A stretch of DNA of 11,077 nucleotides. Origin: a virus (Duplodnaviria; Heunggongvirae; Uroviricota; Caudoviricetes). The notes under the pieces were generated by a model that had not been told where the DNA came from, made no database searches, and saw only the letters and a program-made list of their open reading frames with translations. Positions 6,925-11,077 of the stretch are shown one piece after another (the stretch's first letter is position 1; each line of letters starts with the position of its first letter). The stretch is from the IMG/VR virus record IMGVR_UViG_2703718845_000001; one strand, 5' to 3'. A program made the position numbers and the translations under genes.

Positions 6925-7026
6925 GTGTCTGAATCTCATTAATCTATTTTTATGATAGAAATATGTTTATCTACCACTTTTATCGATCAATAATGTGCAC
7001 AGTTTAGTCAGTAAGAGGAAGTTACT

Positions 7027-7233
7027 GTGAGTTGTATTAATGACCTGAACACGGGCGATATCAGGGGTGGTTCCGTTCATCTGGATGCGCAGACCGTTAT
7101 GCGCCTTAAGCAGTACAGGATCGACCATATAAATCATCATCCTGACAAACCATTACCAGGTGTGGCGCAGATTGTCAGACATGCCGTAAACACCTGGCTT
7201 AATCAGAATGGTTTTGCATCGGTGGGGGAATAA
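7027..7233 (+). CDS. Small hypothetical protein (68 aa), translationally coupled to the protease-capsid gene
   Basis: GTG start with AAGAGGA 7 nt upstream; stop overlaps the downstream ATG (TAATG); segment VHLDAQTVMRLKQY...GVAQIVRHAVNTWL could be RHH-like; function not assignable. Confidence 0.45.
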   Translation: MSCINDLNTGDIRGGSVHLDAQTVMRLKQYRIDHINHHPDKPLPGVAQIVRHAVNTWLNQNGFASVGE

Positions 7234-9146
7234 TGAATCGCTGGTACACCATTAAGGCGGCGGATGTTCGTGGAGCGGCGGATATATCTATCTATGAGGA
7301 GATTGGCGGCTTCGGTGTTACTGCAAAGCAGTTCGCGGAAGACCTGAAAGCCCTTGGCGATGTTTCACATATCAATCTGAGGATCCATTCACCAGGTGGT
7401 GATGTGTTTGAAGGCATCGCCATCTATAACCTGCTACGGAATCATCCGGCAGACATTACGGTTTATATCGATGGTGTTGCGGCTTCAATGGCTTCGGTGG
7501 TCGCAATGGCTGGCGATCGTGTAGTGATGCCGGAGAACGCCATGATGATGATCCATAAACCGTGGGGGATCTCTGGCGGAAATGCTGGCGATATGCGTGA
7601 TTATGCTGATTTGCTGGATAAGGTGGAAACCGTGTTAATCCCTGCTTATGCCAGAAAAACGGGCAAATCAGCACAGGAAATTACCGCCATGCTGGAGGAT
7701 GAAACCTGGATGGATGGGAAAGAATGCCTTAAGCACGGTTTTGCTGATGAATTGTTGCCATCCGTCAGAGCAATGGCGCGAATTGAATCGAAACGCACAG
7801 GAGATTTTTTACATATGCCGGAAACCATTAAAGGAATGATTACACCGCCACAGGGAGCGGCAAATATTGCTGGTAATGAACAGAAGCGCATCAATGGAAT
7901 AAGTGAAGTGTTTAGCCTGTTCGGCAGTCGTTACGACGGGATCAAAATGGCGTGTCTGGAAGATGCATCATGTACACCGGAAATGGCCCGTGAAAAGCTG
8001 TTGAACGAGCTGGGGCGCGAGTCCACGCCATCCAATAAAAATACCCCGCCTCATATCTATGCCGGAAACGGAAACATAACAGGTGATGCAATTCGTCAGG
8101 GGCTTTATTCCCGTCTTGGGTATGAACGCCCTGAACGAGGCAACCCTTACGCGATGATGAGCCTTTTTGAAATGGCCCAGGCATCACTGGTTGATCGTGG
8201 TATCACTGTGAGCGGTTTTATTAATCGCTCGCAGGTTGTTAATGCGGCTTTTACACACAGCAGCAGTGATTTTTCTCATATTCTGGCTGGTGGGGCTGAA
8301 AAATCTGTACTGAAAGGCTGGCAGGACAGCGGCGAAACGTTCCAGAAATGGACGCGTACCGGTTCGCTTTCAAACTTTCATGAAGCAAAGCGCGTTGGTC
8401 TGAATGGTTTTTCAAAGCTGGATAAAGTACCGGAAGGTGCGGAATATAAATACATCACCACCAGCGATAAAGGTGTACCTATTGCGCTGGCCACGTACGG
8501 GAATATTTTTTCCGTTACCCGTCAGGCCATTATCAACGATGACCTGACCCAGTTAACTACAATCCCCATGGCGATGGGACGCGCAGCCGCCAGAACAGTT
8601 GGCAATCTGGTTTATCTCCTGTTAACCAGCAACGGCAAGTTTACGGATGGTAAAGCGTTATTCCATGCCGATCATAAAAATCTTATTGCGAAGGATATGG
8701 ACATGGTGGGGCTTGATGAAGCCCGTAAGCGGATGCGCCTCCAGGAGGATGCTAACGGCGACTCCCTGAATATTACCCCTGCTTTTGTTCTGGTCCCTGC
8801 CGCGCTGGAATCTGCCGCGCGTCGCGCCATTTTGTCATCGTCATCAGTCTTTCCGGTTGGTGATGAGAGCACTATCAATCAGAACCCCGGCATCATTAAC
8901 GTGGTGAAAGATATGGCAGAAGTAATTGTTGAGCCACGTCTTGATAAGGCCAATAGCAAGGAATGGTATGTAGCCGCAGCTAAGGGGATGGACACAATAG
9001 AAGTCGCTTATCTTGATGGGATGGATACGCCATATCTTGAGGAGCAGGTGGGCTTTACTGTTGATGGTGTCGCCTGGAAAGTACGCATAGATGCAGGTGT
9101 CGCGGCCCTCGATTATCGCGGATTACTGAAATCGAGTGGAGCATGA
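7233..9146 (+). CDS. ClpP-family prohead serine protease fused to a major-capsid-protein-like domain (capsid precursor polyprotein)
   Basis: N-terminal about 190 aa carry ClpP/S14 motifs GVAASMAS (Ser) and MMIHKPWG (His), compare E. coli ClpP GQAASMG and MIHQPLGG; the C-terminal about 400 aa is large, A/G/V-rich and ends in a glycine/beta-rich tail, consistent with an HK97-fold capsid protein but not verified; cos site and terminator follow. Confidence 0.85.
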   Translation: MNRWYTIKAADVRGAADISIYEEIGGFGVTAKQFAEDLKALGDVSHINLRIHSPGGDVFEGIAIYNLLRNHPADITVYIDGVAASMASVVAMAGDRVVMPENAMMMIHKPWGISGGNAGDMRDYADLLDKVETVLIPAYARKTGKSAQEITAMLEDETWMDGKECLKHGFADELLPSVRAMARIESKRTGDFLHMPETIKGMITPPQGAANIAGNEQKRINGISEVFSLFGSRYDGIKMACLEDASCTPEMAREKLLNELGRESTPSNKNTPPHIYAGNGNITGDAIRQGLYSRLGYERPERGNPYAMMSLFEMAQASLVDRGITVSGFINRSQVVNAAFTHSSSDFSHILAGGAEKSVLKGWQDSGETFQKWTRTGSLSNFHEAKRVGLNGFSKLDKVPEGAEYKYITTSDKGVPIALATYGNIFSVTRQAIINDDLTQLTTIPMAMGRAAARTVGNLVYLLLTSNGKFTDGKALFHADHKNLIAKDMDMVGLDEARKRMRLQEDANGDSLNITPAFVLVPAALESAARRAILSSSSVFPVGDESTINQNPGIINVVKDMAEVIVEPRLDKANSKEWYVAAAKGMDTIEVAYLDGMDTPYLEEQVGFTVDGVAWKVRIDAGVAALDYRGLLKSSGA

Positions 9147-9152
9147 CAACAA

Positions 9153-9175
9153 GGGCGGCGACAGCCGCCTTTTTT
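9153..9175 (+). terminator. Rho-independent terminator after the protease-capsid gene
   Basis: ggcggc-gaca-gccgcc followed by tttttt, 7 nt after the stop codon. Confidence 0.6.
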
Positions 9176-9300
9176 ACGGGTCCTCCCGGTGGAGTGGTCT
9201 GCCACGGGGCGGGAGCGGCGCGGAAAAAGGCTAGTTTTTGCATTTTCATTCGTCATCATCATCTTTCTATGATATTGAATTTTAAGTGTTTTTATTTTTA
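9165..9300. other. Lambda-like cos site (cosQ/cosN/cosB-like), copy B
   Basis: acgggtcctcccggtggagtggtctgccacg gggcgggagcgg... aligns with the lambda cos junction; downstream cgtcatcatc...aagtgtttttattttta resembles lambda cosB (cgtcataacttaatgtttttatttaaaa); sits about 100 bp upstream of the Nu1-like gene, as in lambda. Confidence 0.65.
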
Positions 9301-9402
9301 GTATGTTAATTTTGCTTGTTTTATGCTCAACATATAGCGCATTTTTTGACCTCTTCTGAAAATTGTTCGCAAGATGCATGTTTAAAACATTCTGGAGCGG
9401 GT

Positions 9403-9888
9403 ATGGATCGAGAACTGAAAAATCTGATGCTGAACATTAATCAACTGGCGGCGATAGCGGGAATATGTCGTCAGACTGCGGCGGCAAGGCTGAAAAACAT
9501 CCAGCCAGCCGGAGGGCATGACAAGCTGAAACTCTATCGGGTGACTGACATTCTGACCTGTTTTCTTGATCTTCCCGTTCCGGCATCACTGGAAGAAATG
9601 GAGCCACATGACCGTAAGGCCTGGTATCAGTCCGAACGTGAGCGCCTCAAGTTCGAACAGGAAACGGCGCAACTCATACCCGCCGATGATGTGCGAAAAG
9701 AGATGGCTATATGGGGGGAAATCGTAAGCGAGGAACTGGCAAAACTCCCCAATATTCTGGCACGTGATGCCGGGCTTAAACCGATGGCAGTAAACAGAGT
9801 GCAGTCAATTATTGACGATTTGTGTAATCAGATTATCAGCCGGATGGTAAAAAATGACGTAGTGAATGAGGTCGCAAAACAGGCATGA
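9403..9888 (+). CDS. Nu1-like small terminase subunit homolog (possible Rpp-type packaging-redirection protein)
   Basis: Probable start is ATG 9403 (GGAG 5 nt upstream; ORF track starts at in-frame ATG 9316); N-terminus INQLAAIAGICRQTAAARLKNIQPAGG...KLYRVTDI parallels lambda Nu1 VNKKQLADIFGASIRTIQNWQEQGMPVLRGGGKGNEVLYDSAAVI (winged HTH). Confidence 0.75.
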   Translation: MDRELKNLMLNINQLAAIAGICRQTAAARLKNIQPAGGHDKLKLYRVTDILTCFLDLPVPASLEEMEPHDRKAWYQSERERLKFEQETAQLIPADDVRKEMAIWGEIVSEELAKLPNILARDAGLKPMAVNRVQSIIDDLCNQIISRMVKNDVVNEVAKQA

Positions 9889-10172
9889 TAATGACTGAAT
9901 CTGAAATACTGCGATTAATCCGCCGTGCTGGTGGAATCAGCCAGCTGGCTGACGAACAGGCCAAGCAGCCGGATACCGTCACCGCTGAAAATTACGCGCG
10001 TGTGGTGGCTGATGTGATGCGCCGTGACGGTATTGAGCTTAACGGCGTGGATATGCGCAACATACGAACCAGAGTTCTTGAGTTGCTGGCATACCGTCGC
10101 CGTTCTCAACAACGGAGGGAGAGCGCGAAAAATACTTACCAGTGGAAGAAGCCGAAACGGTTGCGGCGGTAG
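9885..10172 (+). CDS. Hypothetical protein (95 aa), basic C-terminus
   Basis: Start overlaps the upstream stop (ATGA); no motif recognised; last gene before the ORF-free region. Confidence 0.55.
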   Translation: MIMTESEILRLIRRAGGISQLADEQAKQPDTVTAENYARVVADVMRRDGIELNGVDMRNIRTRVLELLAYRRRSQQRRESAKNTYQWKKPKRLRR

Positions 10173-10915: not shown

Positions 10916-11053
10916 TTTTATACCTGCTTATACTCTGTCACGGTATCCTATAGGTATCCTAGAAAAAACGAAGGGGTCACGCTGTTAACGTAACCCCTTG
11001 ATAGATATGGTGGCCCCTGTTGGGTTTGAACCAACGACCAAGCGATTATGAGT
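10916..11053. repeat. Right copy of 138-bp imperfect direct repeat (element-side att arm overlapping the intact tRNA 3' half)
   Basis: Colinear with 1-138; includes the 20-mer cggtatcctataggtatcct (10941-10960), the terminator and the tRNA 3' half. Confidence 0.8.
10961..10999 (-). terminator. Rho-independent terminator of the tRNA gene (minus strand)
   Basis: Minus-strand hairpin aagggg...cccctt followed by a U-run (plus-strand agaaaaaa), immediately 3' of the tRNA CCA end. Confidence 0.6.
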
Positions 11054-11077
11054 CGCCTGCTCTAACCACTGAGCTAA
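11008..11077 (-). tRNA. tRNA with CAU anticodon (ileX/ileY-like tRNA-Ile2, or Met-type); 5' end truncated by the window edge
   Basis: Reverse complement reads TTAGCTCAGTGGTTAGAGCAGGCGACTCATAATCGCTTGGTCGTTGGTTCAAACCCAACAGGGGCCACCA: D-arm, anticodon loop CTCATAA, T-arm and CCA end; about 6 nt of the 5' acceptor strand lie beyond position 11077. Confidence 0.85.

What the first reader, a model, noticed from the sequence alone, without database searches (positions are those of the whole stretch)
9165..10172. Lambda-like cos plus Nu1-like small terminase without a large terminase
The cos segment aligns with lambda cosQ/cosN/cosB and is followed, as in lambda, by a Nu1-like gene whose N-terminus parallels the Nu1 winged HTH. 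No gpA-like large terminase follows, only a 95-aa basic ORF. This fits a packaging-hijack module of the Rpp type reported for E. coli PICIs (from memory) and implies a lambdoid cos helper; the 95-aa partner is uncharacterised.
Basis: partly seen in the sequence, partly recalled or inferred. Interest (0 to 1): 0.55.

Follow-up and report, generated by a model that had tools for sequence, protein, structure and literature searches.

The report
Satellite packaging module: cos plus TerS-like gene
This is the DNA-packaging module of a small E. coli phage satellite (a PICI): it carries a copy of its helper phages' cos cutting site and an altered copy of their small terminase, a known kind of hijacking module but built from a different terminase family than the studied Rpp proteins.

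Summary
Window 9176-9402 is a lambda-style cos region. Window 9403-9888 encodes a 161-aa small-terminase-like protein. A 93/95-aa ORF follows, and there is no large terminase.

The window is one complete 10.9-kb Gram-negative PICI: int, alpA, primase, ori, protease-capsid fusion, cos, TerS-like gene and a 93-aa gene. It is flanked by 138-nt repeats next to tRNA-Ile.

The TerS-like protein is not an Rpp or Nu1 family member by sequence. It is DUF1441 (PF07278), the TerS family of mEp460/Gifsy-2-type lambdoid phages. [quoted passage not shown] It sits in the same slot as rppA in EcCICFT073, between cos and the conserved 93-aa gene.

The gene is mosaic. cosQ, cosN, the spacer and codons 1-~75 form a cassette shared almost identically with a prophage that has its own TerL. 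The last ~65 residues are an island-only module (191 of 5426 complete E. coli genomes) that lacks the acidic tail seen in phage TerS of this family.

I favour an Rpp-like mixed oligomer with helper TerS (about 0.4). Direct recruitment of helper TerL is nearly as likely. The 93-aa protein is a general PICI gene, not a specific partner. This is a known kind, and the interest is moderate-low.

The parts
9154..9175 (+). Terminator-like hairpin (GGCGGC-GACA-GCCGCC) plus a T6 run, ending the capsid gene transcript just before cosQ. This left flank of cos is island-specific.
   Evidence: Read directly from the sequence. The hairpin was flagged. The same flank is present in island relatives (45-46 of 46 nt) and absent from phages. 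EcCICFT073 has an analogous hairpin and T-run before its cos.
9178..9184 (+). cosQ-like heptamer GGGTCCT.
   Evidence: Identical to the lambda heptamer in the aligned position. It is part of the 40-nt core that occurs twice in the window with 0 expected by chance.
9207..9218 (+). cosN-like 12-mer GGGCGGGAGCGG. By analogy with lambda this would be the cohesive end. The exact nick positions have not been determined.
   Evidence: Alignment with lambda and EcCICFT073 cos. The ends of phage record LR595868 fall at window-equivalent 9201|9202. A dyad symmetry is centred at about 9199/9200.
9219..9402 (+). cosB-equivalent spacer and terS leader, the presumed binding region for the wHTH domain. It has no similarity to the lambda R sites.
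   Evidence: Near-identical to the cos-terS spacer of a P0014-type prophage. It differs from the spacers of PhiR40_1, mEp460 and the P0009 island, which carry other DNA-binding-domain types.
9176..9632 (+). Exchangeable cassette: cosQ, cosN, spacer and TerS codons 1-~76. It is shared between islands and phages.
   Evidence: 10 mismatches in 457 nt against the prophage of E. coli CFSAN064035, and none across 9363-9632. Beyond 9632 the two sequences diverge strongly. Against the P0009 island the pattern is the reverse: diverged across 9241-9618, then 5 mismatches in 270 nt.
9403..9888 (+). 161-aa satellite TerS-like protein of the DUF1441 family. Predicted layout: wHTH at about residues 9-55, invariant central helix 68-88, island-specific helical C-terminal module from about 95 to 150, and a non-acidic tail.
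9891..10172 (+). Conserved 93-aa PICI protein with a basic C-terminus and unknown function.
   Evidence: 73% identical to the ORF downstream of rppA in EcCICFT073. 744 clusters, all named hypothetical, with no Pfam, NCBIfam or PADLOC hit. No tblastn hit in 50,697 phage records.
6621..6714 (+). Second, directly repeated cos copy (cos1), with GGGTCCT at 6643-6649 and GGGCGGGAGCGT at 6672-6683. It keeps cosQ, cosN and about 35 nt beyond, but lacks the spacer shared by cos2 and the phages.
   Evidence: 93% identical to 9156-9249. Segment-by-segment comparison. The surrounding 781-nt segment is contiguous in 155 complete E. coli genomes.
7233..9146 (+). ClpP-like prohead protease / major capsid protein fusion, a satellite copy of the helper-type head gene.
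   Evidence: PF00574 plus PF25209, and NF045540 at 898 bits. 57% identical over its full length to the fusion protein of the P0014-type prophage.
319..6460 (+). The rest of the PICI backbone. Integrase 319-1740, AlpA-like HTH 2583-2801, DUF4222 4132-4431, D5/P4-alpha-type primase 4413-6245, and an ori-like cluster of TGTTCACC repeats at 6244-6460.
   Evidence: Pfam and PHROG hits. Repeats. Same gene order as EcCICFT073 and the HS13-1 island.
10916..11077 (-). Right attachment repeat (10916-11053, 95% identical to 1-138) overlapping the 3' end of a tRNA gene (11011-11077, cut by the window end). The corresponding gene in relatives is annotated tRNA-Ile.

Best explanation
What it is (about 0.85 confidence). 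The segment is the packaging module of a canonical Gram-negative PICI. The island makes no large terminase, portal or tail. To be packaged it must be cut at its own cos (9178-9218 plus the spacer to 9402) by the GpA-type terminase of an mEp460/Gifsy-2-type lambdoid helper.

How I think it works (inferred, about 0.4). The 161-aa protein is a satellite derivative of the helper's small terminase. Its N-terminal winged-HTH binds the adjacent spacer, which is the cosB equivalent. The DNA-binding domain and the spacer are inherited together as one cassette. Through the invariant central helix (RKAWYQSERERLKFEQE) the protein assembles with helper TerS subunits into mixed oligomers. Those helper subunits supply the contact to TerL, which the satellite version has probably lost because its island-specific C-terminal module lacks the acidic tail. 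This is the logic of Rpp: it diverts terminase to island concatemers and spoils helper packaging.

A limit on this model. Discrimination against the helper can work only when the helper carries a different DBD/spacer cassette. With a helper carrying the same cassette, the island is simply packaged as a cos-bearing replicon.

Shown versus inferred. Shown here: the anatomy, the homologies, the mosaic structure and the partition of C-terminal types by genomic context. Inferred: every protein-protein and protein-DNA interaction.
For: PICI identity. The window has int, alpA, primase, ori, a capsid gene, cos, a TerS-like gene and 138-nt att repeats at a tRNA. This matches the five PICI core components listed in PMC10085698 and the gene order of EcCICFT073.

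Same slot as rppA. The gene lies between cos and the conserved 93-aa gene. RppA is needed for island transfer and acts through helper TerS (PMC6739421).

TerS origin. PF07278 and phrog_141 match. The protein is up to 70.7% identical to TerS of sequenced phages, where the gene is followed by TerL, a W-like gene, portal and the protease-capsid fusion. [quoted passage not shown]

Partition of C-terminal types by context.
- The island-type C-terminus forms a discrete group: at least 84% identical within the group and 45-52% identical to the phage type. It is joined to at least 3 different N-terminal types.
- It is contiguous with the 93-aa gene in 191 complete genomes.
- The phage-type C-terminus is contiguous with TerL in 1360 genomes and in every phage or prophage locus examined.
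- A search of 1.84 billion representative proteins found no closer relative of the island C-terminus than the phage type, at about 57% identity.

Tail charge. Net charge of the last 15 residues is 0 to +1 in 12 island clusters. The median is -7 in 77 phage clusters.

Recombination pattern. The junction sits at codons ~73-77. Exchange with phages is therefore frequent, yet it never replaces the island C-terminus. This argues for selection on a distinct function of that module.
Against: 1. Unlike Rpp, the protein is full length. Its C-terminal helical domain keeps all family-invariant core residues (L112, P116, L119, R121, D122, V133, Q134, D138). It could therefore still bind TerL directly.

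2. Nothing is known experimentally about which part of a DUF1441 TerS contacts TerL. The role of the acidic tail is my inference.

3. The spacer and DNA-binding domain are 97.8-100% identical to those of a real prophage found in the same genome as a sister island. Redirection by altered DNA specificity, the defining Rpp trick, cannot operate against that phage.

4. Some related islands have cos and the 93-aa gene with no TerS-like gene at all. The gene is therefore not universally required.

5. No helper has been demonstrated for this island.
Confidence: 0.42

Rival explanations
1. Autonomous satellite TerS, as in pac-type SaPIs. The 161-aa protein forms its own oligomers, binds the island spacer, and recruits helper TerL directly through its diverged but still homologous C-terminal domain. 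It competes with helper TerS for TerL rather than binding helper TerS.
For: It is full length (161 vs 163 aa) and all invariant residues of the C-terminal domain are retained. De Sousa et al. list a small terminase as a PICI core component that redirects packaging (PMC10085698). Another island in the same slot carries a full-length Nu1-type TerS that is 38% identical to lambda Nu1 through to the C-terminal end. A diverged oligomerisation/C-terminal module would keep satellite and helper TerS from mixing, as reported for different Rpp variants.
Against: The acidic tail is present in 75 of 77 phage-type clusters and missing in all 12 island clusters. If binding the helper's TerL were the constraint, the frequent recombination with phages should also homogenise the C-terminus. 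Instead it is kept island-specific in 191 genomes. With a DBD/spacer cassette shared with phages, a stand-alone TerS would give no specificity against those phages.
Confidence: 0.3
2. Passively captured late genes. The cos site alone gives packaging by the helper's own TerS/TerL, as for cos-type SaPIbov5. The TerS-like gene and capsid gene are hitch-hiking copies acquired by recombination with helper prophages and have little or no dedicated role.
For: GN-PICIs and helper-embedded PICIs often capture helper late genes, and a PICI capsid gene could be knocked out without loss of transfer (bioRxiv 10.1101/2022.07.18.500453 and PMC10111431). The cos cassette is phage-identical. A related island has cos and the 93-aa gene but no TerS-like gene.
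Against: The island-type C-terminal module is intact and conserved (at least 84% identity) across at least 3 N-terminal backgrounds and 191 genomes. It is clearly distinct from every phage copy. That is not the pattern of a recent neutral capture or of decay. The ORF is uninterrupted and has a good ribosome-binding site.
Confidence: 0.15
3. Pure interference factor. The protein is a dominant-negative TerS that poisons helper terminase by mixing into TerS oligomers or occupying the helper's cosB. It protects the host or favours the island only indirectly and is not needed for island packaging.
For: The N-terminal half and central helix are identical to phage TerS, while the C-terminal module is altered. 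Rpp proteins also block helper reproduction.
Against: The island uses the same cos/DBD cassette. A pure poison would block the island's own packaging equally. In the Rpp precedent, interference and island packaging are two faces of one interaction.
Confidence: 0.1

Closest known systems
RppA/RppB/RppC of E. coli PICIs (EcCICFT073; PDB 6HLK, 6HN7; Fillol-Salom 2019, PMC6739421)
   Same: A PICI-encoded protein of about 150 aa, thought to derive from TerS, with an N-terminal winged-HTH. It is encoded immediately downstream of the island's cos and upstream of the same conserved 93-aa gene. The island has no TerL and depends on a cos helper.
   Different: No detectable sequence similarity, and a different Pfam family. 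It is full length relative to helper TerS rather than 30-40 aa shorter. Its DNA-binding domain and spacer are shared with phages rather than private. What is island-specific is the C-terminal module, not the DNA-recognition part.
Small terminase (DUF1441, PF07278, phrog_141) of mEp460, mEp213, PhiR40_1, Gifsy-2, cdtI and VT1-Sakai-type lambdoid phages
   Same: Same family (E 1.3e-35). Residues 1-95 are up to 100% identical to a prophage TerS. The same cos core lies ~190-200 nt upstream in the loci examined.
   Different: It is followed by a 93-aa PICI gene rather than GpA-type TerL. The last ~65 residues are only 45-52% identical to the phage type. The acidic tail is absent.
Lambda cos and Nu1 (PF07471)
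   Different: The cosN 12-mer matches at 7 of 12 positions. There are no R3/R2/R1-like repeats. The protein does not match the Nu1 HMM.
SaPI-encoded TerS (pac SaPIs) and cos-type SaPIbov5
   Same: A satellite that carries either its own TerS homologue or the helper's cos so as to be packaged by the helper's TerL. It also carries a homologue of the helper capsid protein, as SaPIbov5 carries Ccm.
   Different: A Gram-negative element with cos (not headful) packaging that has both cos and a TerS homologue. No Ppi-like gene was identified.
Helper-embedded PICIs (Williams lab; PMC10111431)
   Same: Close relatives of this island carry the same capsid fusion, cos and 93-aa gene. They sit inside the TerL or portal genes of DUF1441-type or lambda-type prophages.
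   Different: This copy is integrated at a tRNA-Ile gene, not inside a prophage.

Membership tests
Rpp (RppA/B/C/G) proteins | Sequence homology to RppA/RppB/RppC | tested here: not met
   BLASTP against RppA (CFT073 c1503) gave no alignment. hhalign of the DUF1441 alignment against RppA gave E 0.13 and probability 0.45%. phmmer against all PDB chains, which include RppC 6HLK/6HN7, gave no hit.
Rpp (RppA/B/C/G) proteins | N-terminal winged-HTH structurally like the helper TerS DNA-binding domain | tested here: met
   [not shown]
Rpp (RppA/B/C/G) proteins | Shorter than helper TerS and lacking the TerL-binding C-terminus | tested here: inconclusive
   It is not shorter: 161 aa against 163 aa. 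However, the acidic tail present in phage TerS is absent. Which residues bind TerL in this family is unknown.
Rpp (RppA/B/C/G) proteins | Island cosB differs from helper cosB, giving a private DNA specificity | tested here: not met
   The spacer plus DNA-binding domain is 97.8-100% identical to that of a TerL-bearing prophage. It does differ from the cassettes of most other phages of the group.
Rpp (RppA/B/C/G) proteins | Gene position: directly downstream of the PICI cos | tested here: met
   The order is cos, gene, 93-aa ORF, as in EcCICFT073.
Rpp (RppA/B/C/G) proteins | Binds helper TerS, blocks helper packaging and is required for island transfer | not testable with these tools
   This needs two-hybrid or pull-down assays and transfer assays.
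DUF1441 (PF07278) phage small terminase | HMM match above the gathering threshold | tested here: met
   122.9 bits against a cutoff of 35.1, E 1.3e-35, covering residues 10-148. phrog_141 at E 6.7e-57.
DUF1441 (PF07278) phage small terminase | Encoded next to, and working with, a cognate GpA-type large terminase | tested here: not met
   There is no TerL in the window. Phage and prophage copies are all followed by a 700-aa GpA TerL.
DUF1441 (PF07278) phage small terminase | Acidic C-terminal tail, as seen in phage members | tested here: not met
   Net charge of the last 15 residues is 0 to +1, against a median of -7 in 77 phage-type clusters.
Lambda Nu1 family (PF07471) | HMM match | tested here: not met
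   No PF07471 hit at E <= 0.1. hhalign against Nu1 gives E 0.018 over the HTH only.
Gram-negative PICI (EcCI type) | int, alpA, pri-rep and ori, then capsid gene, then terS/cos in one orientation; size about 10 kb; att repeats; no lysis or tail genes | tested here: met
   Compared with EcCICFT073 and with the component list in PMC10085698.
Gram-negative PICI (EcCI type) | Induction and high-frequency transfer by a helper phage | not testable with these tools
   Only indirect support is available. A sister island and a prophage with the same cos cassette co-reside in E. coli CFSAN064035.
Lambda-type cos site | cosQ, cosN and cosB in lambda order and spacing, with cohesive ends generated at cosN | tested here: inconclusive
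   The cosQ heptamer is identical. The cosN 12-mer matches at 7 of 12 positions and the spacing is 1 nt shorter. There is no R-site similarity. Phage record ends fall within 5 nt of the predicted nick. The actual nick positions are not determined, and a dyad symmetry is centred 13 nt to the left.

The most novel reading that the evidence does not exclude
These islands may carry a second, independently evolved TerS-derived redirection protein. In it, the hijacking function would reside in an island-specific C-terminal module that rewires or withholds the TerL contact. The DNA-binding domain and cosB would be swapped freely with helper phages as a cassette. This is the reverse of Rpp, where the DNA-binding specificity is what is private. 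The protein would then be a living intermediate answering the open question of where Rpp proteins come from.
Probability: 0.3. Interest if true: 0.55.

Novelty: new member of a known kind. Interest (0 to 1): 0.3.

Why it matters
Packaging redirection in Gram-negative PICIs has been worked out only for Rpp and lambda/phi80-type helpers. This module is about twice as common as rppA in complete E. coli genomes at megablast sensitivity (191 vs 97 of 5426). It is aimed at a different and very widespread prophage group: the phage-type cos-terS-TerL arrangement is present in 1609 genomes, and the group includes VT1-Sakai and some Stx2-converting phages.

Its mosaic structure suggests a concrete swap experiment. 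The N-terminal cassette is shared with phages and the C-terminal module is island-only. Exchanging the C-terminal modules would show how a satellite converts a helper's TerS into a hijacking factor. That bears on the stated open question of where Rpp proteins come from (PMC6739421).

It does not reveal a new kind of system.

Tried and rejected
1. 93/95-aa protein as a mimic or remnant of the TerL N-terminus. The idea came from its position where TerL starts in phages and from its basic tail. BLASTP against the 700-aa TerL found nothing. Rejected at sequence level.

2. Function of the 93-aa protein.
- Pfam, NCBIfam and PADLOC gave no hit. PHROGs matched only families of unknown function (phrog_1561, E 1.1e-51).
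- phmmer against the PDB found nothing.
- The AF2 model is helical with pLDDT 68.6, and Foldseek against the PDB gave no match at E < 1.
- There is no hit in 50,697 phage records.

4. Looking for a phage lineage whose TerS carries the island-type C-terminus.
- A word-indexed search with the last 68 residues returned only fragments of island copies.
- An exhaustive HMMER search returned phage-type DUF1441 at about 57% identity as the nearest relative.

5. A third C-terminal type (P0016, P0019). Only contigs of 1.4-1.8 kb were found, with no called neighbouring genes. Context unresolved.

6. Supplementary tables of Fillol-Salom 2018 were searched for DUF1441 or terminase annotations of PICIs. 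Nothing usable was found.

7. Rfam found only the tRNA. The promoter and terminator scan was not informative.

8. Which prophages co-reside with the 191 islands could not be determined systematically with the tools available.
Full report
**What the window is.** The 11,077-nt window is one complete integrated element.
- 138-nt direct repeats lie at 1-138 and 10916-11053, 95% identical.
- The right repeat overlaps the 3' end of a tRNA at 11011-11077 on the minus strand, cut by the window end.
- In E. coli HS13-1 and CFSAN064035, near-identical elements sit between nfeF and tRNA-Ile/mug.
- On the plus strand the element encodes a tyrosine integrase, an AlpA-type HTH, a DUF4222 protein and a D5/P4-alpha-type primase.
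- Next comes an ori-like cluster of TGTTCACC repeats.
- After that it encodes a 68-aa protein, a ClpP-protease/major-capsid fusion, the TerS-like gene and a 93-aa gene.
- This is the gene order of EcCICFT073. It also matches the five core components used to define PICIs: integrase, regulator, primase-replicase, capsid gene and small terminase (PMC10085698).

*The cos region.*
- A 40-nt core at 9178-9217 contains lambda's cosQ heptamer GGGTCCT.
- It also contains GGGCGGGAGCGG, in register with lambda's cohesive end GGGCGGCGACCT. Seven of 12 bases match, the flanking ACG and CGCGG are conserved, and the cosQ-cosN spacing is 1 nt shorter.
- The core occurs twice in the window, with none expected in 200 shuffles.
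- A looser version of the core pattern matches once in each of 12 fetched loci, ~190-200 nt upstream of a DUF1441 gene in those examined.
- The record of phage mEp460_4F5 starts and ends within 5 nt of the predicted nick.
- Downstream of cosN there is no similarity to lambda R3/R2/R1.
- The exact nick positions remain inferred. A strong dyad symmetry (z = -4.1) is centred about 13 nt to the left of the centre of the 12-mer.

*The TerS-like gene.*
- The gene at 9403-9888 matches DUF1441 (PF07278, E 1.3e-35) and phrog_141 'terminase small subunit' (E 6.7e-57).
- It does not match the Nu1 HMM.

*No large terminase.* No TerL is present anywhere in the window.

**Which family, and which helpers.**
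- DUF1441 is the small terminase of mEp460, mEp213, Ayreon, PhiR40_1, Gifsy-2, cdtI, VT1-Sakai and several Stx2 phages.
- In those phages the gene is followed by a 700-aa GpA-type TerL, a W-like gene, portal, and a ClpP-capsid fusion.
- The island's own capsid fusion is 57% identical to the prophage one.
- The island therefore carries satellite copies of two head genes of this phage group. The implied helpers are these phages rather than lambda.

**Relation to Rpp.**
- I located EcCICFT073 in the CFT073 genome.
- rppA (144 aa) lies directly downstream of the island's lambda-like cos.
- It is followed by an inverted second cos and then a 93-aa ORF that is 73% identical to the ORF at 9891-10172.
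- The window's 161-aa gene therefore occupies the rppA slot.
- It shows no sequence similarity to RppA or to RppC in the PDB.
- It is not shortened relative to helper TerS.

**The 93-aa gene.**
- It is present in 955 of 5426 complete E. coli genomes.
- It is joined to the island-type DUF1441 gene in 191 of them.
- An rppA-like gene is found in 97 genomes.
- The 93-aa protein is thus a general PICI component of unknown function, not a dedicated partner.

**The mosaic structure.** This is the main new detail. The alignment of island and phage proteins, a census of 120 homologue clusters and the context look-ups show two modules.

*N-terminal cassette.*
- Residues 1-~95 comprise the wHTH and the invariant helix RKAWYQSERERLKFEQE.
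- They come in several variants that are shared between islands and phages.
- The window's variant is identical to that of prophage TerS P0014. The island carrying P0009 has the mEp460 variant.

*C-terminal module.*
- The last ~65 residues come in an island type and a phage type.
- Island type: EMAIWGEIVSEELAKLPNILARDAGLKPMAVNRVQSIIDDLCNQIISRMVKNDVVNEVAKQA.
- Phage type: ...RDQIALRVTEAGADDEEELQQEE.
- The island type is at least 84% identical within its group and only 45-52% identical to the phage type.
- The island type is always found in island context, and the phage type is always followed by TerL.

*DNA-level boundaries.*
- Against a TerL-bearing prophage of strain CFSAN064035, the window has 10 mismatches in 457 nt across 9176-9632.
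- It has none across 9363-9632, and it diverges after 9632.
- Against the P0009 island the pattern is reversed.
- The junction is at codons ~73-77.

*Consequences.*
- cosQ, cosN, the spacer and the DNA-binding domain travel as one cassette that moves between islands and phages.
- CFSAN064035 carries both a sister island and that prophage.
- That prophage type matches at 100% identity over the full query in only 2 of 5426 complete genomes. The transfer may therefore have gone from island to phage.

*Tail and nearest relatives.*
- The last 15 residues have net charge 0 to +1 in 12 island clusters, against a median of -7 in 77 phage clusters.
- An exhaustive search found no closer relative of the island C-terminus than the phage type, at about 57% identity.

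**Mechanism.** The element must be packaged by a helper's GpA-type terminase acting at its cos. That much follows from its gene content.

For the 161-aa protein I favour an Rpp-like mode, at about 0.4 probability:
- The wHTH binds the adjacent spacer.
- The invariant central helix allows mixing with helper TerS.
- The island-specific C-terminus, which lacks the acidic tail, no longer makes the phage-type contact.
- TerL is therefore brought in by the helper subunits, and helper packaging suffers.

The main argument is that recombination with phages is evidently frequent in this gene, yet it never replaces the island C-terminus. This indicates selection for a function different from that of the phage TerS C-terminus.

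The nearly equal rival, at about 0.3, is an autonomous satellite TerS that binds TerL directly. The C-terminal domain keeps all invariant core residues.

Two lesser rivals are passive capture (about 0.15) and pure interference (about 0.1).

There is a clear difference from Rpp. Because the DBD/spacer cassette is shared with phages, discrimination by DNA specificity can work only against helpers that carry another cassette. All interaction steps are inferred and none is shown.

**Second cos.**
- cos1 (6621-6714) duplicates cosQ, cosN and about 35 nt beyond. It then diverges, with 3 of 18 bases matching at the R3-equivalent position.
- The segment containing it is contiguous in 155 complete genomes. 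It is absent from the HS13-1 island.
- By analogy with lambda (established knowledge: termination needs cosQ/cosN and initiation needs cosB), cos1 could serve as an extra termination site.
- With a unit of 10.9 kb, cos sites would fall at about 32.7, 41.1 and 43.7 kb from an initiation at cos2.
- Those positions are close to the 42-45 kb genomes of these phages.
- EcCICFT073 also has two functional cos sites, and why is an acknowledged open question (PMC6092414 and PMC6739421).

**Verdict.** It is wrong on family (DUF1441 TerS, not Rpp or Nu1) and on the role of the small ORF. This is a new, uncharacterised but common member of a known kind of system. The mosaic architecture gives a testable handle on how satellites derive hijacking proteins from helper TerS.

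Noticed in passing
window 6621-6714 (core 6643-6682): There is a second cos copy in direct orientation, 2535 nt upstream of the main one, so the two copies flank the capsid gene. It keeps cosQ, cosN and about 35 nt beyond, but not the spacer shared with phages. Its 12-mer differs at the last base (GGGCGGGAGCGT). The surrounding segment is contiguous in 155 complete E. coli genomes, but the copy is absent from the closest relative, HS13-1.
   Followed up: partly
L003 38270-38345 (EcCICFT073 in CFT073): EcCICFT073 carries an inverted second cos copy between rppA and the 93-aa gene. This matches the 'two cosN sequences' reported in PMC6092414. Deleting its cos2 increased transfer in that study.
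   Followed up: partly
window 6244-6460: A dense cluster of direct and inverted TGTTCACC-containing repeats lies just downstream of the primase gene. It is probably the island's replication origin.
   Followed up: no
window 9171-9228: An extended dyad symmetry (TTTTT..GGTCCTCCCG / CGGGAGCGGC..AAAAA) is centred at 9199/9200. The DNA fold z-score is -4.1. The centre lies 13 nt to the left of the lambda-analogous cosN centre and next to the ends of phage record LR595868. The real nick sites may therefore differ from those predicted by analogy with lambda.
   Followed up: partly
window 6245-7027; L023 8068-8781; L001 8839-9503: The stretch between primase/ori and the capsid gene is a variable slot. 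This window has cos1 and non-coding DNA there. HS13-1 has a hypothetical gene and an SSB gene. CFSAN064035 has a reverse-strand HEPN-domain gene, a possible defence cargo.
   Followed up: no
window 1724-2449: A 241-aa ORF between the integrase and alpA has no Pfam, NCBIfam or PADLOC match. It is annotated as hypothetical in relatives. It occupies the accessory-gene position of PICIs.
   Followed up: partly
[not shown]
   Followed up: partly
L023 and L024 (E. coli CFSAN064035): A sister island and a prophage in the same genome share the cos/DNA-binding-domain cassette. That prophage TerS type matches at 100% identity over the full query in only 2 of 5426 complete genomes. This suggests a cassette transfer from island to phage.
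   Followed up: partly
P0016, P0019 (L025, L026): A third DUF1441 C-terminal type (...VIQANDWQGNDSQVAQEIHQGDNSRHS) is about equally distant from the island type and the phage type. It was seen only on short metagenomic contigs with no called neighbouring gene.
   Followed up: partly
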